A stretch of 64,000 nucleotides of DNA. Origin: Escherichia coli. Its GTDB lineage: Bacteria > Pseudomonadota > Gammaproteobacteria > Enterobacterales > Enterobacteriaceae. A model generated the notes under the pieces. That model did no database searches and was not told where the DNA came from. It saw nothing but the letters and a program-made list of their open reading frames with translations. The translations under genes and the position numbers were made by a program. The stretch's first letter is position 1, and each line of letters starts with the position of its first letter. The stretch is from NCBI RefSeq assembly GCF_030384885.1, contig NZ_CP128613.1; one strand, given 5' to 3'. Shown here piece by piece: positions 5,669 to 61,550 of this stretch.

Positions 5669-6655
5669 TTAATAAAGTGAGTCAATATTGTCTTTGTTGA
5701 CCAGTAATACCTTATGGAAACGGATAATTCGCTTATCCATATCTACGTCGGCCTTACCGAGATTCTCCATTTCTAATCCAGGTTTGATCTCTTCACCCTT
5801 CAGCAACGTGCTGGCGACGGCCGCGAGTGCGTAACCTGCAGAGGCCGGATCGTAAGTAATCCCTTCGGTGATATCACCACTTTTAATCAGTGATGCCGCC
5901 TGTGAAGGGATCATCATGCCATAGACTGCGACTTTATTTTTCGCCCGTTTCTCTTTCACCGCACGTCCCGCGCCAATCGGACCGTTTGAACCAAAGGAGA
6001 CAACCGCTTTCAAGTCAGGATAGGTTTTCATGAGGTCCAGTGTGGTACGACGTGAGTCATCCACACTCTCGGCAACCGGCATGCGGCGGGTAACTTCATG
6101 CATATCCGGGTAATGCTCTTTCTGGTATTTCACCAGCAAGTCAGCCCATAAGTTATGCTGCGGCACGGTCAAACTACCCACGTAAATCACATAGCCGCCC
6201 TTGCCACCCATGCGTTTCGCCATATGTTCAACATATTCAGCGGCAAATTTTTCGTTATCAATGATTTCGATATCCCAGTTAGCACTTGGCTGACCGGGGG
6301 ATTCGTTGGTCAGAACCACAATTCCGGCATCTCGCGCTTTTTTGAATACCGGTTCCAGCACGTTGGCATCGTTTGGCACAATTGTAATTGCATTAACCTT
6401 ACGGGCGATTAAATCCTCAATGATTTTAACCTGTTGCGGAGCATCAGTACTTGAAGGTCCCACCTGTGACGCATTAACACCAAAGGCTTTACCCGCCTCG
6501 ACCACACCTTCGCCCATGCGATTAAACCACGGCATACCATCGACTTTAGAGATATTCACCACGACTTTTTCCGCTGCCTGGAGCGGCGAGGAAATTAGCG
6601 CAGCGCCTAATAACAGCGAAGACACCATATTGATAACAAAACGTTTATTCATCAT
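5669..6655 (-). CDS. Periplasmic substrate-binding protein (LsrB/RbsB-like, type I)
   Basis: 328 aa with N-terminal signal peptide (…SSPLQAAEK); overall resemblance to AI-2/ribose-binding proteins including the C-terminal NKDNID motif. Substrate unknown. Confidence 0.8.
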   Translation of the reverse strand: MMNKRFVINMVSSLLLGAALISSPLQAAEKVVVNISKVDGMPWFNRMGEGVVEAGKAFGVNASQVGPSSTDAPQQVKIIEDLIARKVNAITIVPNDANVLEPVFKKARDAGIVVLTNESPGQPSANWDIEIIDNEKFAAEYVEHMAKRMGGKGGYVIYVGSLTVPQHNLWADLLVKYQKEHYPDMHEVTRRMPVAESVDDSRRTTLDLMKTYPDLKAVVSFGSNGPIGAGRAVKEKRAKNKVAVYGMMIPSQAASLIKSGDITEGITYDPASAGYALAAVASTLLKGEEIKPGLEMENLGKADVDMDKRIIRFHKVLLVNKDNIDSLY

Positions 6656-6905
6656 TTCAGCCTCATTGCAGGGTAGTCAGGAAGTGTTCGCCCAAATTAG
6701 CGCGCTGGAGAGAATAAGAATTTTCGAATATTTTTATGCAGAATAAACAGCCCTATTTCAGGCAGCTATTAAAAATTTGGTTATAAATATGGACAAAACG
6801 GGCAGTAACAATAAGTGTGACAATCATCACGTAAAAAATAGTAAAACAAACACAATTAACGATATTTTATGTTTGTGAGTTTATTTCATGCGGATAGAGA
6901 GTTAT

Positions 6906-7316
6906 CTACACAACTTCAATGAGGGCATATTCTTCAAAAATAACGTCCATTTCGGGTGAATAGCTTCCCTCTGCCTGGAAAAAACGACGGTGTTCATTGC
7001 GCCAATATTCAAGACTAAGATCACCTTCACCTTCCTTACGGGCAAGCTCCGCGGTGACATCAGAAAATCGCAGTAAATGCAGGCCAATCACTCTGATAAC
7101 ACATACAGGCTCACCACGGCTATTTTCTACAATCTTATACTCACCAATCATCGGAAATGCGTTGTCTTCAATACATCCTGCCAGCGAACCACAGGAAGCA
7201 GTTTTAACACCAGTTGCAATCAACGTTGCGAGGTAATCGGCCAACGCTGCTGAATCGCCAAAACTACAAAAGGAAGCATGGGGATATTTTTGTGAGATTT
7301 TTTCTTTTATGGTCAT
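6906..7316 (-). CDS. ASCH-domain-like small protein
   Basis: 136-aa ORF of ASCH/PUA-like size and composition; assignment from sequence resemblance only. Confidence 0.55.
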   Translation of the reverse strand: MTIKEKISQKYPHASFCSFGDSAALADYLATLIATGVKTASCGSLAGCIEDNAFPMIGEYKIVENSRGEPVCVIRVIGLHLLRFSDVTAELARKEGEGDLSLEYWRNEHRRFFQAEGSYSPEMDVIFEEYALIEVV

Positions 7317-7613
7317 GAGAATATTTTCGCGATTACGGAAAAAAAATCACATCTTAATTACTGTCGATAACTATCAGCAAGAGGATCATTGGTTTTTCTA
7401 TGTTTAATCTTTTTTATCCGAAGCAGGTCACATTTATGGCTTGATAAATACCTTTGTTAAAACTCACTTTTGTGTATTTCTCTCAAATAATCCCCTGGAA
7501 ATTATGCCGGGAGATTATAAAGTTCAGGATCATTCATTAACAAACCATTCCCGCCCCACTCCCTGGGGCTTAAATCTCTTACTATTCACCGTTGCAGGCG
7601 TTTCAAATTCGTA

Positions 7614-16335: not shown

Positions 16336-17424
16336 TCAACCACCTGCTTTCATTACCCATTCAGAGATAAATTTATTACCCGGTACTGGCGGAGAGTACA
16401 AATAGCCCTGCAAAAAGTGAACGCCTTTGCCGATCATTAAATCCGCCTGCTCCTGGGTTTCTACCCCTTCCGCCACGATACTCAGACCAGGCTTACGCGC
16501 CAGTTCGACAATATTGTCCACAATATGACCGGAGATTTCGTCAACACTCGCCATTTGCACAAACGACTTGTCAATTTTAATAAAATCGACCGGAAACGCC
16601 TGCAGATAACGATAGGTCGCATAACCCGTACCAAAGTCATCCAGCGCAAAGGTAATGTTATGCTGATGAAGGCTGTCAAATATCGCTCTGGCTTCTGGCG
16701 TTACCGGAATGGGGTTGCGTTCCGTTAGCTCAAGAACCAGCTTGATTTTATCGTTACCTAATTTCTTGACCAGGTTCAGACACTCTTTTTCAAATCCTGC
16801 GGCCAAAAAACATCCTGCCGAGACGTTGATTCCAATATGGAAATTATCCGGCAGCAAATGTTTTACTGGCATCAGAATATCCGCAGTCTGTTTCATCAGC
16901 TGGCGAGTCATTATGACAATAAGACCGGATGACTCCGCCAGAGGAATAAACTGATCCGGTGGGATAATTCCCGTTTGCGGATGTTCCCAGCGGACAAGCA
17001 CTTCACAGCCCGTCAGTACCCCAGTCTGCGCGCAGAAAACCGGTTGGATCCACGGTTTGAATTCGTGATTTTCCAACGCCAGACTGATGGCTTCAGGCGT
17101 GACGATATGGTGATAGTGATTATCATTAATATATTTGTGACTATTATTACCCGTGGCGGATATGATCTCCGGATTGTACTGAAAGAAAATATCCCGCCAG
17201 AAAGTAATATCGCTCTGAATCCCCAGTTTCTCAAAGAGCTGTTTCTTTTGATGTGAAATGGTCTTTGCACTGCGATTTCTGTACTGTGATATTTCTGTTA
17301 CAGACATTCCCTGCATCAGCAGCTTGAGTAGCAGTCGTTCTTTCTCGGATACGCTACCAGGCAATGACAAATGAACCGTTGTACCGAACTCTTGCAGAAA
17401 AACACGAAAATCACATGAATTCAT
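16336..17424 (-). CDS. pdeL: c-di-GMP phosphodiesterase / transcription regulator (LuxR-type HTH + EAL domain)
   Basis: N-terminal LuxR-type HTH, C-terminal EAL domain (ELTE…DDFGTGY…KIDKSF). Start trimmed to MNSCDF. Confidence 0.85.
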   Translation of the reverse strand: MNSCDFRVFLQEFGTTVHLSLPGSVSEKERLLLKLLMQGMSVTEISQYRNRSAKTISHQKKQLFEKLGIQSDITFWRDIFFQYNPEIISATGNNSHKYINDNHYHHIVTPEAISLALENHEFKPWIQPVFCAQTGVLTGCEVLVRWEHPQTGIIPPDQFIPLAESSGLIVIMTRQLMKQTADILMPVKHLLPDNFHIGINVSAGCFLAAGFEKECLNLVKKLGNDKIKLVLELTERNPIPVTPEARAIFDSLHQHNITFALDDFGTGYATYRYLQAFPVDFIKIDKSFVQMASVDEISGHIVDNIVELARKPGLSIVAEGVETQEQADLMIGKGVHFLQGYLYSPPVPGNKFISEWVMKAGG

Positions 17425-54269: not shown

Positions 54270-54331
54270 ATTTACCCTGTTTGTTTCATTATGTTGTACA
54301 CCTCTTCAGGAGTATTCATAAAACAAGATAA

Positions 54332-54500
54332 ATGTAAAGAACTGTATTGTTTTGTATAATGCAATGGTGACTAATCGCCAATTAATATAAGCACCATCAT
54401 TTCTCCATATTTTTATGTTAGAAGTGACAAGGAGAAATGTAATGTTTCTCTCAGAGAATATAAATCATTCCTTTTGCCCACCTTAATGGTGGGCTTTTTT
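54332..54500 (+). ncRNA. Candidate short transcription unit: promoter (perfect -10 TATAAT at ~54355), 14-codon ORF (MFLSENINHSFCPP, 54442..54486, SD AAGGAG) and intrinsic terminator (54476..54500)
   Basis: TATAAT preceded by TG; then an RBS-plus-mini-ORF whose stop sits inside a GC-rich hairpin (GCCCACC-TTAAT-GGTGGGC) followed by TTTTTT. Confidence 0.35.
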
Positions 54501-54865
54501 ATGCAAAACCTGAACACCCTGTGGTATTCCCCTGGCATTATCACTTTCGCGATTAACCAACAGCCAGACCAGCAAACACGCCACTACAGGCACAGCAAAA
54601 TCCATCAGGCTTGCCACACCCCATGCGTGCGGCTCAAAGCCGCCCCGCCATGGCATATTAATCCGCTTACCATTTTCGAACAGCTGATTGGTTTAGTCCG
54701 GTGTTTCCCTGCTTGCACTTAAAAATGAGCGGATGGGAAACTCTCGAAATGGTTCGTCGATATGCTCACCTTTCAGTCAGGCATTTCACCGCGCACGCGA
54801 GCAAAATCAAAGGCACATGAGGAGAATGTGGTTGACTTAAAAACGAGGAAACTTATTGATTTAAA

Positions 54866-54912
54866 TGGTGCCGATAATAGGAGTCGAACCTACGACCTTC
54901 GCATTACGAATT
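54866..54912 (-). tRNA. Pseudo-tRNA: 3' ~47 nt of a tRNA-Thr (thrW-like) = att core of an integrated element
   Basis: The minus strand reads …ATTCGTAATGCGAAGGTCGTAGGTTCGACTCCTATTATCGGCACCA (anticodon arm with CGU, T-arm GGTTCGACTCC, acceptor 3' strand + CCA); the 5' half (GCCGATA…) is absent, so this is a fragment. Confidence 0.75.
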
Positions 54913-55282
54913 ATAAGAATCCGTTTCTAATTCAAAGCATTACCACATCAACACTGCGCTCACACGTCCCACCACATCAAAACATGTAAAGCCTTGCAAG
55001 CCATTGTGAGGCCTTATGTGTCTCAGTTTTGTCCCACCTTGTATTACGACTTGCATAACCAATGAAGATAAACGTGACGACAAACGACGCAGCAGTCTTC
55101 TTTTCTTTCACACTTTCCCCACTCAGCATGCATACCTTCTACTATAACTGTAGTGAATGTCTGTTATGAGCGAGGAGCGGACTATCTTTCTGTGCTAAGC
55201 ACAGAAGTTTAAATTAATAAATAGAGATTAAGATGTTTATTGGTTACATTGATATTTATAATTTGATTGCCTTGAAATTCCT

Positions 55283-55322
55283 AAGCCGAATTCATGACGT
55301 CTTCATCACATGAATTCGGCTT
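55283..55322. terminator. Perfect 14-bp-stem hairpin (AAGCCGAATTCATG … CATGAATTCGGCTT) 3' of the 447-aa cargo gene
   Basis: Exact reverse-complement arms around a 12-nt loop, ~30 bp beyond the gene's stop. Confidence 0.55.
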
Positions 55323-55351
55323 ATGCATAATACTAAGTTGGTTTTATTAAG

Positions 55352-56695
55352 TCATTTCTTTGCCGCGCTTTTATTGCACTTCTTACAGCCTTCAATCAAT
55401 TTTTCAGTTATTATATAATAATAAGGAATGTAAATGTTTAACCCGCAAGTTTTAATCGAATCGAAAGCAAGAACTTTCACAATGGATTCTTCTCCATCTT
55501 TCTCCATTAGCAATATATCACTTAAAGGCAAATCATTAGGATTGTAAATCCTCACATCGCCAGGCTGTCTTTCATAGGCTTCGATGTCATCACCTGGTTG
55601 GCCATAGGCTAAATGAGTGGCTTTAATCCAGTTTATTGGTTCAGCATTTTGACACCAGGAGATTATTTTTTCTAATTTTTCAGGTGTGTAAGCTTTTACA
55701 TAATCTCCATGTTTTTCACATCTACCTAGTTCTGAAAAATGGCCCAGGGTGTATTCATAAGAATAATCACCAGCAGTCAATGGTAGTCTAAAGTATTGCT
55801 GAGGCAATGCCTTCTGGACTTTGGTTTTACTCAGCAAATTAAAGGTGATATCATAAAGTTGATATAGACAAACACCCTCTCGATCTGGATATCCATAAGG
55901 CTTGATGTCAGAAAGCATCTCAATATCAGAATTATAAACACTTGCATAATCATCACTTCCAAACATGAAAAAACCTTTTGATAGAATGAATATTGCATTA
56001 GGAAGAACGTTTTTTTCAAAATTCTGCGAGTGAGTTTTTATTTCTTGTACTATGTCCATCCAATCCATATCAGTATCATAGGCGAAGATAATTCCAAAAC
56101 CATTAGTCTGAATTCTCTCCTCTGAATGTATAAATATGTTCTGATTTATACCATGTTTCTTTAGTTTTTTGAATGAGCGGATATTTTCGAAAGCACTTTT
56201 CAGTTCTTTTTTTGTTAGTTTTGACTTAACCTGAATCACACCATAGCAGTACTCCACAGGTAAAACCTCAAAAATTTCCTGTCGCTGCATAAGCGAAAAT
56301 GAATTAAAAGCATCATAAAAAAGAATGTCGATTTCATTACTGAGATGTCCTGAGGTTGACGCTACACGGACACTTGATTTTGAGATGGCATAGCTTTGCG
56401 GTAAGAGTTTATTTTCATTGAAAAAGCATCTTAAGAGTTCCTCTCTGACAGTACCAACATCTCTTGGATGCTTAATATCTTTCGATATTTCAAAATCTTG
56501 AAGCATTTTCCTCTGTAAGTGAATGAACTCCCTTTCAAGACCATAAAATTCTTTATCTTTAGATCTCAGTTTGCTTGCACGAGAAACTTGATCGGATATC
56601 CATTCCTTTGTGCGAGACTCTCTCTCAGCAAAATCATCACGTTGTTTTTTTACAGCACCGGTCAAGCGTTTTCTTGTGTTTTCATTATCGGACAT
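55352..56695 (-). CDS. Hypothetical 447-aa protein of unknown function (AT-rich cargo gene; possible PD-(D/E)xK-like nuclease motif)
   Basis: Long uninterrupted ORF in visibly AT-rich DNA, K/E-rich N-terminus, a segment (…EIDILFYDAF…EYCYGVIQVKSK…) reminiscent of a restriction-endonuclease-like fold; stands alone between a terminator and the repeat/invertase region. Confidence 0.7.
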   Translation of the reverse strand: MSDNENTRKRLTGAVKKQRDDFAERESRTKEWISDQVSRASKLRSKDKEFYGLEREFIHLQRKMLQDFEISKDIKHPRDVGTVREELLRCFFNENKLLPQSYAISKSSVRVASTSGHLSNEIDILFYDAFNSFSLMQRQEIFEVLPVEYCYGVIQVKSKLTKKELKSAFENIRSFKKLKKHGINQNIFIHSEERIQTNGFGIIFAYDTDMDWMDIVQEIKTHSQNFEKNVLPNAIFILSKGFFMFGSDDYASVYNSDIEMLSDIKPYGYPDREGVCLYQLYDITFNLLSKTKVQKALPQQYFRLPLTAGDYSYEYTLGHFSELGRCEKHGDYVKAYTPEKLEKIISWCQNAEPINWIKATHLAYGQPGDDIEAYERQPGDVRIYNPNDLPLSDILLMEKDGEESIVKVLAFDSIKTCGLNIYIPYYYIITEKLIEGCKKCNKSAAKK

Positions 56696-57095
56696 AAATT
56701 AACCTTAAGTTGATAAGTTTTGTGGTGAATTTATAAAGCCTGAGGGATAAACATTTATAGTCTATAAGTTACTATTTATTTGAGATAGTAAGCCAATTTT
56801 ATTAGATGAAGAAACGTTCATAACCTCCTCAACTACGTTTCAATCGGCAACATCGGAGAAGTACACTTTGACAATATATAGCATATTGAAGCAGCTGTAA
56901 CTTAGAGCGCGTACACTCAAGATTTCCCGCTGCGGTGATGGCGGACGACTGCGTTTGATAACTCATTTCCCTCACCAACTATCGGACCTGTTCCTGATTG
57001 ATTATCACATTATAATGTGAGCAATGTCCGCTCCTAGCACATAGCAGTTCTAGAGACAATGGCGTAAAGTCATGGAGAATCGGTGGGAGGATATT

Positions 57096-57227
57096 CAGTT
57101 TCATTCATGCCGAAATACGGTAAAATCTATAACAGATAGAAATCATTCAATATTCGCACTATCAGAAGCTGGCCAGCCAACCGCGCACGATTTTGCATAC
57201 GACATGCTACGGTTTCATTTATCTCCG
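57096..57227 (+). repeat. Copy B of the ~130-bp imperfect direct repeat
   Basis: See copy A (52924..53053). Confidence 0.5.
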
Positions 57228-57814
57228 ACCGGAAACTTCTTATACAGTGTCGATACACCAACATCATAGATGATCTCCACCTTCTGGCGAGGAACGCCTG
57301 ATGCAATTAATCGCCCGGCCTGCGCCCTTTGTTCTGGTGTAAGTTTGGGACGACGTCCACCAATTCGTCCCTGTGCGCGAGCAACTTCCAGTCCAGCTTT
57401 TGTTCGTTCAACAATCAGTTCTCGTTCCATTTCAGCCAGGGCACCCATCACATGAAAGAAAAAACGCCCCATCGGTGTGCTGGTATCAATAGCATCCGTC
57501 AGGCTGCGAAAATTAACGCCACGTTCGCGCAACTCCTCAACCAGAATGACCAGATGGACAAGCGTGCCGGGACCGGGTTTATTCAGCGCTTCAATCAGGC
57601 GATCGCGCTGGTCAAAGCAGTCATCTCCCACCACATAAGCTGTGATGGACGGGCGGAAAGTGACTTTTCCCAGATCTTCGGTATAGGGCTTGTCGCGGTT
57701 CGGGTATTCATGTGTTTCCACACGGCGACCGGTTCCCGCACTTTCTTCTTCAACCTTAAACGGCACACCTCGAAATGACGCATCCTGAAGCCTGTCTTTC
57801 CACGTCATATACAC
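57215..57814 (-). pseudogene. Pin/Hin/Gin-family serine invertase C-terminal fragment fused to an unrelated N-terminus
   Basis: The C-terminal ~115 aa (…ELRERGVNFRSLTDAIDTSTPMGRFFFHVMGALAEMERELIVERT…RRPKLTPEQ…STLYKK) match the invertase core and HTH; the N-terminal ~85 aa show no resolvase catalytic-Ser region. Confidence 0.6.
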
Positions 57815-57869: not shown

Positions 57870-58400
57870 TTAGCGAGTCAGAAACAACGAATCTTTATAC
57901 TTTTGCTGTTGTTCATTTAAATACTTAGCTGTTTCATCGCTGGCAAATGGAAATATTACCGTATTTTTAGGCATGGTAATTTCTTTTTTGTCCAGCGTCA
58001 GAGTAAACATAGGAACATACTGAGCAGAGTAACGCACCGCAGAAACGAGCTCTAGTTTAGACTCTTCAATAACACTTAAATTATCCAGGCTAACTTTCTC
58101 TTCATCTTTTTTCTTTGACGCATTTAAAGTTTTTATTACTTTATTTAATTTCTCCTGAAAATCCTCCTTAAAGTTTTCAGGATTGCCGTCGACAACAAGA
58201 ATCTGTTCACCCTGATTATCTGGAAAAATAATCTTTGCACTTATCAATTTATTTTCTTTATAAACATCACCAAGTTTTATGGCTCCTCCAGATAACTGAA
58301 TAATATGTTCATCTTTAAAGGAGATGTTGCCAGAGATTATGAGAGATGAAAAAATAGCCGCTGCTCCAAGAATTACACTTGCTGTGATATAGCCTTTCAT
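57870..58400 (-). CDS. Hypothetical signal-peptide/lipoprotein-like protein (AT-rich cargo)
   Basis: 176-aa ORF with an N-terminal hydrophobic segment (MKGYITASVILGAAAIFSSLIISG), Lys/Glu-rich, in visibly AT-rich DNA, with its own terminator. Confidence 0.6.
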   Translation of the reverse strand: MKGYITASVILGAAAIFSSLIISGNISFKDEHIIQLSGGAIKLGDVYKENKLISAKIIFPDNQGEQILVVDGNPENFKEDFQEKLNKVIKTLNASKKKDEEKVSLDNLSVIEESKLELVSAVRYSAQYVPMFTLTLDKKEITMPKNTVIFPFASDETAKYLNEQQQKYKDSLFLTR

Positions 58401-58491: not shown

Positions 58492-59623
58492 CTACCAAAA
58501 TCGGGTATAGCCAACATCGTGATTTATATCAATGCCACTGGAGCGTGTTTCCGTAACCCGCATACCTGGTGGCATATTTATAAATGATACCTTGATCTCA
58601 CCATCAACTTTTGGCGCGGTAGCTTTATTAATCATGAAGGGATTCGGGCCTGTGGCATCGGAGGCGTTGTTTGCCTGAGCCGGATCCACCGCCGGATAAG
58701 GAGTGTATCCCCGTGCCGGTATTCCCGTCTTCGATATTGTTGAAGGTGGCGCGATCGGTGTTCTGCACCATGTGCAACGGCACCCGGAACAGACGACAGA
58801 TTTCTTCAAGCTGAAACTTGCGGGTTTCCAGGAACTGGCTGTCCTCGGCGTTCAGCGCCATCGACTTCCAGTCCAGCCCCATCTCAAGGATCATCGGGCG
58901 GTGAGCATTACCAAGCCCGGTGTGACGCTCCTCAAAATCTTTCTTCAGGCGCTCATAAGCCTGATCCGACAGCGTCTGTTCTGTACGCAACACACCCGAC
59001 GTCACCGCGCCATTGCTGAACAGTCTGGCCCCGTGCTCTTCGGTCGCAGCTGCCAGCGATATTGCCTCACGGGCATAGGCGATGGGATTCAGTCCCACCA
59101 GACCGTCCAGCGTCAGCGTGCGCACATGCCAGATATCCTCCTGGCTCAGTACATCCGTGGAGCCATCCGGGAATGTGACCTGATAGACCGGCTCCCAGCT
59201 ACTGTTAAGCTTCGGTACCACACAGCCGGGATCGACGGGCAGCAGTTCAGCCACTTCGCCAAATGCTTTCACTTTGTAGGCGTAAAAGTTTCCCCGCAGG
59301 CACAGACAGGTGACCACCAGCTCCCAGAACTCCTGCGGCGTCATATAGCCATTGGGATGCGTGGAGATCAGCTTATGCAGACGTTCGCCAGTGGCTCTCT
59401 GCTTCAGGCTGCCGTTCAGGTGATACAGGTTGCAGGGCAACATCCCGACCGACTCCGCCAGCACCCTGACACAGGAAAAAACCGCCGTCAGTCGCATGGC
59501 CCGCTGGCTGCTGATCTGCTTTCCGGTATAGGTGTCGTAGGACAACCCGATGGCATCCGCCAGCTCTGCTGGCGTGGTCACCGGTGCGTCACTTTTTCGT
59601 TGAAATAATCCCGAAAAGAACAC
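58492..59623 (-). pseudogene. Phage portal protein (HK97 family), frameshifted and truncated
   Basis: ORF 58628..59623 (331 aa) is portal-like until ~58720, where it runs into a low-complexity tail; the continuation lies in another frame (58492..58809). Confidence 0.7.
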
Positions 59624-59816: not shown

Positions 59817-61550
59817 TTAAAGCGAGCGGATCCCGTAGGACTCAATGTGGTCAGACAGCGTGTCTTCTTTCTCGTACAGCATGGCTCTGCCAACCGCCAT
59901 AATCAGCGCAACTGCACCATCGATTTTGTTTTCCGCCTGCTCTTTGACGGGTTTCACCACATCATCGTTACCCGGAATGGTTTTGCCGACCACGTTGCCG
60001 ATACACCAGGTCATGATGGGATTGCCGTCATGATGAAAGCGCCCCGATTCAATTGCCGCTTCCAGCTCTTTCATCGGGTCGGACATGTTGGTGTAGTTCT
60101 GAATGATAGTGATGGGGTTCAGGTCTTCATCAGCAAGGTCATGTGACAACCCGGTCGCCCCGAAGGGGTCGATGGGTGACTCACTGACCGGGCTGATTTT
60201 GTTCGCCGCTTTGGCCTCCTCGAGGATGTAGCGATAATCCACCTCCGCACCATCGGTAACGGTCAGAACGCCCATTTCCACCCATTTCTGAAAGCGTTCG
60301 GCTGTCCGTCGATCTTCATTTTTCTCGACGCTGTACACCGTGTCATACGGTACCCAGAAACGCGGGGCCACACTGTAGTAATGCGTTTTACCGTCAATCT
60401 CGCGGGTATAAAGTCGCGCCATGCTGTTCATATCCAGCTTACGCGCCAGGTCAAAGGCCAGAATGCACGGCTGCCCCTCGAACTGCTCAAGAGTCAGTGA
60501 TTTATCCTCGCATCTCTGCCAGCTCACCAGGTTGAAATACGCCGAACGCGCCGACACCCAGATATTGAGGTGTTTTGTTTTAAAGACGTTTGCCAGACGG
60601 GCGTTATTTTTCGCACGTTGCTGCTGGCTTAACAAAAACTCGCGATAAACCGACACACCGATATTCGGGTTAGCTTTTTCAAGTACCTGCGGGTCGGTCC
60701 AGTCGTCGCCTTCGTCAACGGTATAGATGATCCCGAACAGTTCATCGTTGGGCACCGAGCCGTTGAGCATCTCGATGACTTCCCGCCGTTTGTCGTAGCA
60801 CGGCCCCTCAATGTTGTACCCGGCGGTGGTAATGGCCCACATCAGTGGCTGGCGTCGCGCCCCCATCCCGGTAAGCATCGTGGTGTAAAGCGCATCTGTG
60901 GCGTGCTCGTGATATTCATCCACCACCGCACAGTGGGGTGATGAACCATCACCGGGGTTACCGATCAGCGGTTCAAACCGCGCACCATCCTCCGGACGGT
61001 TCATGTTTGAGGCGTTAACCTCAATCCCGAACGCTTCCGTCAGCATGGGTGTGCGTTTACACATCAGTCGTGCCGGACGAAAGACTTCCCATGCCTGTTT
61101 CTCCGTCGTGGCACCGGAATACACTTCCGCGCCGAACTCGTTATCACAGGCAAAACAATACAGGGCGACACCGGCAGAGATTGCCGATTTGCCGTTCTTA
61201 CGGGGGATTTCGGTATACACCTCACGGAAGCGGCGCAGCCGGGAGCCTTTATTGACCCAGCCAAACGCGCAGCAGATCACAAAGAGCTGCCACGGCTCCA
61301 GCGTGATGGGCATCCTCTTAAATGCCCACTCACCCTTGGTGTGCGGCAACAGCTGAATAAATTTCGCGGCCCGTTCAGCCAGGTCCTTGTCGAAGCGGTA
61401 ACGAAACGACTTACTTTTTTCCTCCATCAGGTCATCAAGATGGCGCTGGCAGGCCTGAATCACAAACTGGCAGGCCACAATCTTTCCGTGCACGACATCA
61501 CGGGCATACTGATTGGCAGCATTTACGTTGGGGTAAGATTTCCGGCTCAT
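59817..61550 (-). CDS. Phage terminase large subunit
   Basis: 577 aa; ATPase Walker-type region (…EIPRKNGKS…) and C-terminal nuclease region; overlaps the small-subunit gene by 4 bp. Confidence 0.9.

What the first reader, a model, noticed from the sequence alone, without database searches (positions are those of the whole stretch)
55352..56695. Orphan 447-aa AT-rich cargo gene at the prophage/att boundary: candidate single-gene anti-phage or abortive-infection system
A long uninterrupted ORF sits alone between the tRNA-Thr att fragment and the phage structural remnant, in DNA visibly more AT-rich than the flanking core genes, with its own downstream hairpin. I could not place it in any family I recognise. 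It has a charged K/E-rich N-terminal region and a segment (EIDILFYDAF … EYCYGVIQVKSK) that could be a PD-(D/E)xK-type nuclease core, plus a large C-terminal domain of unknown type. Att-proximal hitch-hiking genes of this kind are a recurrent home for defence systems, so this is the best candidate in the window for undescribed biology.
Basis: partly seen in the sequence, partly recalled or inferred. Interest (0 to 1): 0.75.

Follow-up and report, generated by a model that had tools for sequence, protein, structure and literature searches.

The report
Stand-alone NucC-like nuclease cargo gene
The orphan gene encodes a DNA-cutting enzyme of the NucC/DUF6602 type, fused to a zinc-binding domain of unknown fold and carried alone as swappable cargo by prophages and genomic islands, so it is most likely a one-gene anti-phage defence of a recently described kind whose trigger is still unknown.

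Summary
A 447-aa ORF lies at 55352-56695 (minus strand) with GC about 0.35 against about 0.53 in the flanks. It sits between a 62-bp thrW (tRNA-Thr) att repeat and a decayed prophage, and a strong hairpin follows it.

The protein can be placed in a family: Pfam DUF6602 (1.7e-22) and the PADLOC CRISPR-associated PD_DExK and NucC effector models. The AlphaFold model (pLDDT 87) matches NucC crystal structures (Foldseek 1e-13, TM 0.78).

It is not a canonical NucC:
- No cyclase or conserved neighbour appears in nine contexts.
- The cA3 contacts R53 and Y81 are S101 and N131.
- The gate-loop position is hypervariable.

Residues 296-447 form a conserved domain with an invariant C326/H329/C437/C440 site. 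This domain occurs only in this family and matches no known fold.

The gene fills a replaceable 1.8-kb cassette (4 of 5426 E. coli genomes). Near-identical copies sit in a lambdoid prophage and a P4-like satellite. dN/dS is about 0.15.

Damona, a validated one-gene defence, carries the same DUF6602 domain.

Verdict: probable single-gene defence nuclease, a new variant of a known kind, with no functional test.

The parts
55352..56695 (-). Complete CDS, 447 aa, DUF6602 / NucC-like nuclease with a C-terminal zinc-site domain
   Evidence: ORF listing. Pfam DUF6602 at 1.7e-22. PADLOC PD_DExK at 2e-27 and NucC effector at 3e-17. RefSeq annotates it as a DUF6602 domain-containing protein, WP_047402275.1. 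dN/dS is 0.15.
56546..56695 (-). Residues 1-50: K/E/R-rich N-terminal extension with a predicted long helix (13-45). It ends in the conserved RSKDxEFxGLERE segment.
   Evidence: Secondary structure of the AF2 model. Invariant R44, F50, G52 and E56 in alignment A1. No counterpart in the roughly 240-aa NucC proteins.
55811..56545 (-). Residues 51-295: NucC-fold restriction-endonuclease-like nuclease domain
   Evidence: Foldseek against PDB gives E. coli, P. aeruginosa, Serratia and Vibrio NucC at E 1e-13 to 4e-10, with TM 0.68-0.78 normalised to NucC. phmmer/hmmsearch hits to NucC chains.
56225..56335 (-). Residues 121-157: catalytic core E121-x-D123 ... P146-x-E148 ... Q155-V-K157
   Evidence: Aligns with Ec NucC Q71-I-D73 ... 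P95-A-E97 ... E104-A-K106. Residue roles are from Lau et al., bioRxiv 10.1101/694703. D123, E148 and K157 are invariant in A1 and A3.
56099..56155 (-). Residues 181-199: hypervariable, low-confidence loop at the position of the NucC gate loop
   Evidence: pLDDT below 50 for residues 184-191. Highest column entropy inside the protein, 3.16 and 2.31 bits per 10-residue block. It lies directly after the segment that aligns to NucC residues up to 131.
55355..55810 (-). Residues 296-447: family-specific C-terminal domain with an invariant C326/H329/C437/C440 site (inferred zinc site) and a basic tail
   Evidence: The stand-alone AF2 model has pLDDT 88.7. No Pfam match. Foldseek against AFDB50 matches only DUF6602 proteins. 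The profile finds only 97 clusters among 1.84 billion, always at the C-terminal end. The four ligand residues are invariant down to 26% identity. dN/dS is 0.06-0.09.
55282..55323 (-). Hairpin 29 nt downstream of the stop codon
   Evidence: RNA fold gives -22.5 kcal/mol, z = -3.18, and 0 of 200 shuffles as stable. There is no T-run, and the terminator scan did not call it.
56873..56901 (-). Sigma-70-like promoter match (GTTACA-17-TATATT) about 180 nt upstream of the ATG. Consensus match only.
   Evidence: Promoter scan. The number of matches in the region does not exceed the shuffle expectation, so this is weak evidence.
55183..57026 (.). The AT-rich replaceable cassette that carries the gene with its own upstream and downstream non-coding DNA
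   Evidence: The flanks 54812-55182 and 57027-57212 are shared with strain NT1F10, where the interior is a different 1.17-kb cassette encoding a lipase-family protein. 3192 genomes match the flanks and only 4 carry this cassette.
54850..54911 (-). 62-bp copy of the thrW (tRNA-Thr) 3' end region: the att repeat of the island
   Evidence: 100% identical to L001 17050-17111, which overlaps the annotated tRNA-Thr at 17066-17141. ARAGORN finds no intact tRNA here.

Best explanation
The gene encodes a stand-alone, Mg2+-dependent DNA endonuclease of the NucC/DUF6602 lineage. It travels as a single-gene cargo cassette on prophages, satellites and integrative islands, and it most likely protects the host or the resident element against infecting phages.

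**Shown here**
- Residues about 50-295 have the NucC fold.
- The catalytic set is E85, E121, D123, E148, Q155 and K157.
- The gene is under purifying selection.
- It has no conserved partner.
- It occupies swappable slots in mobile elements.

**Inferred**
- The enzyme is held inactive until infection.
- It does not use the NucC activation route. There is no cyclase. Two mappable cA3 contacts are lost in this protein. The gate-loop position is hypervariable.
- Control instead lies within the same polypeptide. The candidates are the conserved, acidic, aromatic-rich C-terminal domain stapled by a Cys3His zinc site, the N-terminal helix and the variable loop. These could sense a phage-derived cue or drive assembly of an active oligomer.
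- Once active, the enzyme would degrade DNA. This would cause growth arrest or death of the infected cell (abortive infection), or direct destruction of phage DNA.
For: **Nuclease identity**
- Pfam DUF6602 at 1.7e-22.
- PADLOC PD_DExK at 2e-27 and NucC effector at 3e-17.
- PDB NucC chains by sequence and by fold, E 1e-13 and TM 0.78.
- The active site aligns with the NucC residues D73/E104/K106 that are required for immunity.
- D123, E148 and K157 are invariant down to 26% identity.

**Functional gene**
- dN/dS is 0.15 overall and 0.08 in the C-terminal domain.

**Autonomy**
- Nine contexts share no neighbour and contain no cyclase.
- The two upstream genes of about 465 aa, in L013 and L007, are unrelated to each other.
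- The cassette holds no partner ORF or RNA.

**Cargo behaviour**
- The cassette is replaceable and sits between conserved flanks; it is present in 4 of 5426 genomes.
- A 98%-identical copy sits in the early region of a lambdoid prophage.
- An 80% copy sits at the end of a P4-like satellite.
- Other copies lie next to KAP-NTPase/HNH genes, a Schlafen-like gene, or a DUF4365+Crr6 gene.

**Precedent**
- Damona, a one-gene DUF6602 cassette with the same PD_DExK and CBASS-endonuclease cross-hits, gave phage resistance when expressed.

**Not NucC-type activation**
- R53 corresponds to S101 and Y81 to N131.
- The loop at residues 181-199 is hypervariable and disordered.
Against: - No functional data exist for this subfamily.
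- PADLOC v2 contains no single-gene system model that it matches.
- I could not obtain the Damona sequence, so the link to Damona rests on the shared Pfam domain and on the paper's description.
- The canonical metal-binding Glu of the ExK motif is Gln here (Q155). Activity therefore depends on E121/E148 compensating, which is plausible but untested. Distant members with Q at both positions weaken a simple swap argument.
- The C-terminal domain is highly conserved and acidic. This is not the usual signature of a fast-evolving phage sensor or of a DNA-binding module.
- Most family members keep a basic residue at the R53 position, so a small phosphate-bearing ligand cannot be excluded for the family as a whole.
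- Deposited phage genomes hold almost no close relatives.
Confidence: 0.55

Rival explanations
1. Orphan second-messenger effector. The protein is a NucC-type nuclease switched on by cA3 or another cyclic oligonucleotide made by a CBASS or type III CRISPR system encoded elsewhere in the genome, or by an incoming element.
For: The fold and the best matches are to cA3-activated NucC. Most family members keep R/K at the position of the cA3 phosphate contact R53, and Y at the Y54 position. A loop exists at the gate-loop position.
Against: No cyclase or CRISPR genes appear in any of nine contexts from five bacterial genera or in the 64-kb window. In this protein R53 is S101 and the stacking Tyr81 is N131; mutating R53 or Y81 alone abolishes NucC activation. 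The gate-loop latch residues are not conserved, and the loop is the most variable segment. The extra, strictly conserved 150-aa domain has no role in such a scheme.
Confidence: 0.07
2. Restriction-like enzyme acting directly on foreign DNA. The C-terminal domain or basic tail would recognise a feature of phage DNA (modified bases, free ends, replication intermediates). The nuclease would cut the invader without killing the cell, as type IV restriction enzymes carried by prophages do.
For: The fold is that of type II restriction endonucleases, with weak Foldseek hits to BbvCI, SgrAI and NgoMIV (NucC's relation to these is stated). There is no methyltransferase partner, as expected for a modification-dependent enzyme. 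The invariant aromatic residues in the C-terminal domain (Y301, Y313, W356, Y374, Y384, Y427) could stack on bases. This last point is inference.
Against: The C-terminal domain has net charge -9 and matches no known DNA- or modified-base-binding fold. The 98% copy in L015 lies near a DNA methyltransferase, but that association is not seen elsewhere.
Confidence: 0.15
3. Function serving the mobile element rather than defence. Examples are a recombination or repair nuclease (RmuC-like), a tool for degrading host or competitor DNA during induction, or an addiction-type toxin that stabilises the island.
For: The gene is always on mobile elements. The Damona authors note a distant relation of DUF6602 to RmuC. 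In one lambdoid prophage it sits in the early replication/nin-type region.
Against: It occupies non-homologous positions in unrelated element types: a tail-end slot, the early region, a satellite end and a chromosomal island. That is moron-like cargo behaviour and not a core element function. It is absent from nearly all relatives of the same elements, being found in 4 of 5426 E. coli genomes while 3192 share the flanks. It has no adjacent antitoxin-like ORF.
Confidence: 0.18
4. Inactive relic: a decaying passenger gene in a decayed prophage, with a crippled active site (Q in place of the catalytic E).
For: The surrounding prophage is fragmentary, with a chimeric ORF and a truncated portal gene. 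Q155 replaces the metal-binding Glu of NucC.
Against: The full-length ORF is intact. dN/dS is 0.15. Q155 is invariant across 41 homologues together with the rest of the site, so it is a family trait and not a lesion. The alleles in the four E. coli genomes are 99.4-100% identical.
Confidence: 0.03

Closest known systems
NucC (cA3-activated endonuclease effector of type III CBASS and some type III CRISPR systems; PDB 6P7O, 6P7P, 6Q1H, 6UXF, 7ZGV)
   Same: Same restriction-endonuclease-derived fold over the whole roughly 240-aa NucC chain (TM 0.68-0.78). Shared HP..G...E helix, LPxxY, S-x-x-I/L-D, P-x-E and x-V/A-K motifs. A surface loop sits at the gate-loop position.
   Different: - 447 aa instead of about 240: a 50-residue N-terminal helix and a 150-residue zinc-site C-terminal domain are added.
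- E104 becomes Q155, with E at the NucC Q71 position.
- The cA3 contacts R53 and Y81 are S101 and N131.
- The loop is hypervariable and lacks the His/Tyr latch.
- The gene is never next to a CD-NTase or type III CRISPR genes.
Damona (single-gene anti-phage cassette of the Vibrio cholerae N16961 chromosomal integron; Darracq et al., bioRxiv 10.1101/2024.07.02.601686)
   Same: Defined by a DUF6602 domain that also hits the Cas PD_DExK and CBASS small-endonuclease profiles, which is the signature found here. One gene, carried on mobile DNA. The authors report its homologues in prophages.
   Different: The paper places its homologues mainly in Acinetobacter prophages, whereas this subfamily is in Enterobacterales, Pseudomonas, Burkholderia and Rhizobiales. 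A Vibrio DUF6602 protein of 306 aa shares only the nuclease core with the window protein (27% over 139 residues).
Acinetobacter prophage DUF6602 proteins of about 381 aa (e.g. P0217, A. baumannii)
   Same: Full-length homologues at 26% identity over 399 columns, E 1e-25, covering both the nuclease and the C-terminal region. Same PADLOC signature. Prophage cargo next to umuDC/SRAP-type genes.
   Different: They have a canonical ExK (IIEIKSK) and Q at the E121 position, no Cys/His ligands, no basic tail and no N-terminal helix. I infer that these are the Acinetobacter Damona homologues; that is not shown.
Type II restriction endonucleases SgrAI, NgoMIV, BbvCI
   Same: Common PD-(D/E)xK core. They are the nearest non-NucC structures, and Lau et al. 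name them as NucC's structural relatives.
   Different: The matches are only weak (E above 0.07, TM below 0.3 on the query). There is no methyltransferase partner and no evidence of sequence specificity.

Membership tests
PD-(D/E)xK nuclease superfamily | Restriction-endonuclease-like alpha/beta core | tested here: met
   The AF2 model (pLDDT 87.4) matches NucC structures at E 1e-13 and, weakly, BbvCI, SgrAI and NgoMIV.
PD-(D/E)xK nuclease superfamily | Catalytic Asp on strand 2 and (D/E/Q)xK on strand 3, plus an acidic residue on the first helix | tested here: met
   D123, Q155-V-K157 and E85, with E121 and E148 also invariant. D123, E148 and K157 are invariant down to 26% identity. The Q variant of the motif is tolerated in other members of the superfamily; that statement rests on my own knowledge (e.g. 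TnsA) and was not tested here.
Pfam DUF6602 (PF20247) | Significant match to the family HMM | tested here: met
   i-Evalue 1.7e-22, residues 69-178 against model positions 2-104 of 104. All homologues carry the same precomputed domain.
NucC (CBASS / type III CRISPR effector) | NucC fold over the full chain | tested here: met
   Foldseek TM 0.68-0.78 normalised to NucC, with about 260 aligned columns.
NucC (CBASS / type III CRISPR effector) | IDx30E(A/V)K active-site motif, with Glu104 coordinating Mg2+ | tested here: not met
   D and K are present with the same spacing, but the Glu is Gln (I-D123 ... Q155-V-K157), and this is invariant in 41 homologues.
NucC (CBASS / type III CRISPR effector) | cA3 pocket residues Arg53, Tyr81 and Thr226/Val227 | tested here: not met
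   The profile alignment puts S101 at Arg53 and N131 at Tyr81. Thr226/Val227 lie outside the alignable region and were not mapped. Other family members have R/K at the Arg53 position.
NucC (CBASS / type III CRISPR effector) | Gate loop with a conserved His136/Tyr141 latch | tested here: not met
   The equivalent segment, residues 181-199, is the most variable in the family and has pLDDT below 50.
NucC (CBASS / type III CRISPR effector) | Encoded in an operon with a CD-NTase or with type III CRISPR genes | tested here: not met
   None is found in the window or in eight other contexts.
NucC (CBASS / type III CRISPR effector) | Homotrimer that hexamerises on activation | not testable with these tools
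   Only monomer prediction was available.
Damona (DUF6602 single-gene defence) | DUF6602 domain with cross-hits to the Cas PD_DExK and CBASS endonuclease profiles | tested here: met
   compared with the description.
Damona (DUF6602 single-gene defence) | Acts as a single gene (no obligatory partner) | tested here: inconclusive
   Nine contexts show no conserved neighbour. Sufficiency of the gene alone was not tested experimentally.
Damona (DUF6602 single-gene defence) | Sequence homology to the V. cholerae Damona protein (the authors' criterion: blastp E < 1e-5 and at least 50% query coverage) | not testable with these tools
   The sequence and locus tag are absent from the preprint text and from the truncated supplement. 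No V. cholerae protein surfaced in the searches.
Damona (DUF6602 single-gene defence) | Confers phage resistance on expression | not testable with these tools
   This needs an experiment.

The most novel reading that the evidence does not exclude
The roughly 450-aa DUF6602 proteins would be self-contained sensor-effector nucleases. The NucC scaffold would have lost cyclic-oligonucleotide control. A previously unseen zinc-stapled, aromatic-rich domain, together with the hypervariable loop at the gate-loop position, would detect a phage-derived molecule or a conserved infection cue directly and switch on DNA cleavage. This would be an evolutionary route from a two-component signalling defence (cyclase plus NucC) to a one-protein defence, with a new fold as the sensor.
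Probability: 0.3. Interest if true: 0.65.

Novelty: new variant of a known kind. Interest (0 to 1): 0.45.

Why it matters
NucC is the textbook example of a nuclease switched on by a cyclic trinucleotide. This protein keeps the NucC scaffold but travels without a cyclase, and it carries instead a conserved domain that occurs nowhere else.

If it defends against phages, it would show how a signalling-dependent effector can become an autonomous one-gene immune protein, and it would give a function to a new fold. It would also extend the poorly understood Damona/DUF6602 class to Escherichia coli, Pseudomonas and Burkholderia.

It marks the slot next to the thrW att site as a place where alternative cargo genes are exchanged between strains.

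The practical interest is moderate. The gene is rare (4 of 5426 complete E. coli genomes), and the general idea of a stand-alone DUF6602 nuclease in defence is already published.

Tried and rejected
- **NCBIfam:** only a chance hit to ribosomal protein L23 (E 0.045, far below the cutoff).
- **PHROGs:** one weak unknown-function family, phrog_32765 at 4.8e-6, covering only the nuclease core.
- **Pfam on the C-terminal alignment:** only sub-threshold zf-LITAF-like hits in 3 of 30 members (E about 0.02).
- **Damona sequence or locus tag:** looked for in the preprint, its stored (truncated) supplement and three citing papers. Not found.
- **V. cholerae relative:** tried to reach one through distant cluster members and through a search seeded with the Acinetobacter homologue. 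Only a Vibrio hepatarius 306-aa protein appeared.
- **Conserved upstream partner (genes of about 465 aa in L013 and L007):** rejected, because the two are unrelated (E 0.58) and neither hits PADLOC.
- **Small partner ORF or RNA in the cassette:** nothing credible.
- **E121/Q155 compensatory swap relative to NucC Q71/E104:** holds for the close family and for three distant members. It is contradicted by members with Q at both positions, so I keep it only as a possibility.
- **Deposited phage genomes:** only two weak Klebsiella phage hits.
- **The search for related loci with the divergent alignment A3:** failed for lack of a conserved stretch. It was rerun with A1.
Full report
**1. Observation**

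GC is 0.33-0.36 across it, against 0.53-0.59 in the ecp fimbrial genes on one side and the phage packaging genes on the other.

ARAGORN and Rfam find no intact tRNA. However, window 54850-54911 is a 62-bp exact copy of the region that overlaps the 3' end of the annotated tRNA-Thr (thrW) of E. coli MB06171. An integrase C-terminal remnant precedes it. The 'tRNA-Thr att fragment' is therefore real.

On the other side lie three features of a decayed prophage:
- an ORF that fuses a baseplate-hub N-terminus to a DNA-invertase C-terminus;
- a small AT-rich gene of unknown function;
- a truncated portal gene, followed by a 577-aa ORF at 59817-61550 that I read as the large terminase (not searched against any library).

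A hairpin at 55282-55323 follows the stop codon: -22.5 kcal/mol, z = -3.2, and no shuffle folds as well. It lacks a T-run, and the terminator scan did not call it.

**2. What the protein is**

The protein can be placed in a family. It matches:
- Pfam DUF6602 (1.7e-22);
- the PADLOC models for the CRISPR-associated PD_DExK protein (2e-27) and the CBASS NucC effector (3e-17, residues 53-247);
- by sequence alone, the solved NucC proteins of Serratia and Vibrio.

An AlphaFold model built on 41 homologues is confident (pLDDT 87.4, pTM 0.83). Its best structural matches are all NucC crystal structures (E 1e-13 to 4e-10, TM 0.68-0.78 normalised to NucC, about 260 aligned columns). Type II restriction enzymes follow far behind.

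A profile alignment to E. coli NucC, read against the residue roles given by Lau et al. (bioRxiv 10.1101/694703), gives these equivalences:

| Ec NucC residue | Window protein |
|---|---|
| D73 | D123 |
| E104 | Q155 |
| K106 | K157 |
| E97 | E148 |
| E39 | E85 |
| Q71 | E121 |

IQVKSK) is thus the PD-(D/E)xK catalytic core. D123, E148 and K157 are invariant even among relatives at 26-31% identity.

Position 155 is Q in the whole close family. It is E in some distant members and in NucC. The reciprocal E/Q pattern at positions 121 and 155 suggests a relocated acidic residue, but members with Q at both positions prevent a firm claim.

**3. How it differs from NucC**

NucC is about 240 residues. 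It is always encoded beside a cyclase, and cA3 activates it by binding a pocket formed by R53, Y81 and T226 under a gate loop latched by H136/Y141.

In the window protein:
- R53 corresponds to S101 and Y81 to N131.
- The segment at the gate-loop position (residues 181-199) is the most variable in the family and is predicted disordered.
- No cyclase or CRISPR gene is present in the window or in any homologue's neighbourhood.

The protein also has a 50-residue charged N-terminal helix ending in a highly conserved RSKDxEFxGLERE segment, and a 150-residue C-terminal domain.

**4. The C-terminal domain**

Modelled alone, the domain is confident (pLDDT 88.7). Searches found the following:
- It has no Pfam family.
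- A profile of it run against 1.84 billion representative proteins finds only 97 clusters, and in all the full-length ones it sits at the C-terminal end of proteins of about 400-470 aa.
- Foldseek against AFDB50 returns only DUF6602 proteins. These include distant proteins of about 375-390 aa from Salmonella, Bordetella and Halobacteriovorax at 15-17% identity.

C326, H329, C437 and C440 are invariant down to 26% identity. From this I infer a structural zinc site that ties the start of the domain to its end. The coordinates could not be inspected.

The domain is acidic (net charge -9), is followed by a basic tail (+5), is rich in invariant aromatic residues and is under stronger purifying selection than the nuclease half (dN/dS 0.06-0.09 against 0.11-0.19).

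**5. Genomic behaviour**

In complete E. coli genomes the gene is rare: 4 of 5426 carry it, while 3192 match the short flanking sequences. Comparison with strain NT1F10 defines the variable cassette as window 55183-57026. The flanks 54812-55182 and 57027-57212 are shared, and the interior is replaced by an unrelated cassette encoding a lipase-family protein.

Relatives sit in many non-homologous places:

| Relative | Context |
|---|---|
| 98%-identical copy (L015) | Lambdoid prophage, between O/P-type replication genes and a methyltransferase |
| 80% copy (L013) | End of a P4-like satellite (integrase, DUF4222, D5 primase) |
| 68% E. coli paralogue family (L003) | Island with integrase, AlpA and H-NS-like genes |
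| Serratia copy (L007) | Beside HNH and KAP-NTPase genes |
| Pseudomonas copy (L009) | After a phage tail gene, 2 kb from a DUF4365+Crr6 protein |
| Burkholderia copy (L010) | In a prophage, next to an SRAP gene |
| Rhizobium copy (L012) | Between a Schlafen-like gene and the CI/integrase module |

No neighbour is shared. The two similar-sized upstream genes in L013 and L007 are unrelated. The cassette holds no credible small ORF or RNA. Sixteen IMG/VR viral contigs carry relatives. The gene is intact and under purifying selection (dN/dS 0.15 at dS 0.29).

**6. Comparison with what is known**

Darracq et al. (bioRxiv 10.1101/2024.07.02.601686) tested cassettes of the V. cholerae chromosomal integron and named one protective single-gene cassette Damona. 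They describe it as a DUF6602 protein that also hits the Cas PD_DExK and CBASS small-endonuclease profiles. That is the signature found here. They report its homologues in prophages, notably of Acinetobacter. Later papers list Damona among DefenseFinder calls and describe its mechanism as poorly understood.

I could not obtain the Damona sequence. An Acinetobacter baumannii prophage DUF6602 protein of 381 aa is a full-length homologue of the window protein (26% identity, E 1e-25). It has a canonical ExK and lacks the Cys/His ligands. A Vibrio DUF6602 protein of 306 aa shares only the nuclease core.

The window protein therefore belongs to the DUF6602 class that contains a validated defence gene. 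It represents a distinct subfamily of about 450 aa, defined by the N-terminal helix, Q155 and the zinc-site domain.

**7. Most likely mechanism**

Shown: it is a NucC-fold nuclease with a conserved catalytic set, autonomous, and mobile-element cargo.

Inferred:
- It is an anti-phage defence nuclease.
- It is kept inactive until infection.
- Its activation does not use cA3 but is built into the polypeptide, through the C-terminal domain, the N-terminal helix and the variable loop.
- It acts by DNA degradation. This leads either to abortive infection, as proposed for NucC, or to direct restriction.

I put about 0.55 on the defence-nuclease reading as a whole. The rivals are a direct restriction-like mode (0.15), an element-serving nuclease (0.18), a trans-activated orphan effector (0.07) and a relic (0.03).

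**8. Verdict**

What remains open and interesting is the trigger and the role of the family-specific zinc-site domain. I rate it a new variant of a known kind, with interest 0.45.

Noticed in passing
window 57215-57814 (-): A single 199-aa ORF joins a phage baseplate-hub N-terminus (aa 2-87, phrog_184) in frame to a DNA-invertase C-terminus (aa 86-196, phrog_125). This looks like a recombination or deletion scar in the decayed prophage.
   Followed up: partly
window 57870-58400 (-): A second AT-rich (GC about 0.35) cargo gene of 176 aa with a hydrophobic N-terminal segment. It matches phrog_5485 (unknown function) end to end and has no PADLOC hit. It could be another moron, for example a superinfection-exclusion or defence gene.
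   Followed up: partly
window 54270-54911: Between yagU and the cassette the window has only an integrase C-terminal remnant (about 54722-54820) and the 62-bp thrW repeat. Strain MB06171 carries paoABCD and a LysR remnant at this position. The window strain therefore has a deletion or rearrangement that joins yagU to the island end. The GC-rich stretch at 54474-54722, with overlapping ORFs on both strands, was not identified.
   Followed up: partly
L002 6182-7352 (E. coli NT1F10) versus window 55183-57026: The same slot, between conserved flanks, holds a 338-aa 'lipase family protein' cassette in the alternative arrangement; all 16 non-carrier records listed carry it, out of roughly 3190 genomes that match the flanks. 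A 410-aa hypothetical protein follows it. Neither hits PADLOC. This looks like a cargo-exchange hotspot next to the thrW att site.
   Followed up: partly
L009 10568-11587 (Pseudomonas asiatica): A DUF4365+Crr6 protein lies 2 kb from the DUF6602 homologue. That domain pair defines the integron defence gene 'Divona' in Darracq et al. A relaxase/NikA pair is nearby. The two integron-type defence domains therefore co-localise outside integrons.
   Followed up: no
L015 (IMG/VR UViG_2630968924_000009) 6001-7356: The 98%-identical copy is 451 aa. Like most close relatives, it has four more residues than the window protein. The difference falls in the indel-rich loop around residues 397-410 of the C-terminal domain, the second variable patch of the protein after the loop at 181-199.
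   Followed up: no
window 58628-59623 (-) and 58492-58809 (-): The portal gene is truncated: it matches positions 49-342 of a 646-position profile. Its 3' end runs into out-of-frame sequence that overlaps another ORF. This fits a degraded prophage in which only the packaging genes remain long.
   Followed up: no
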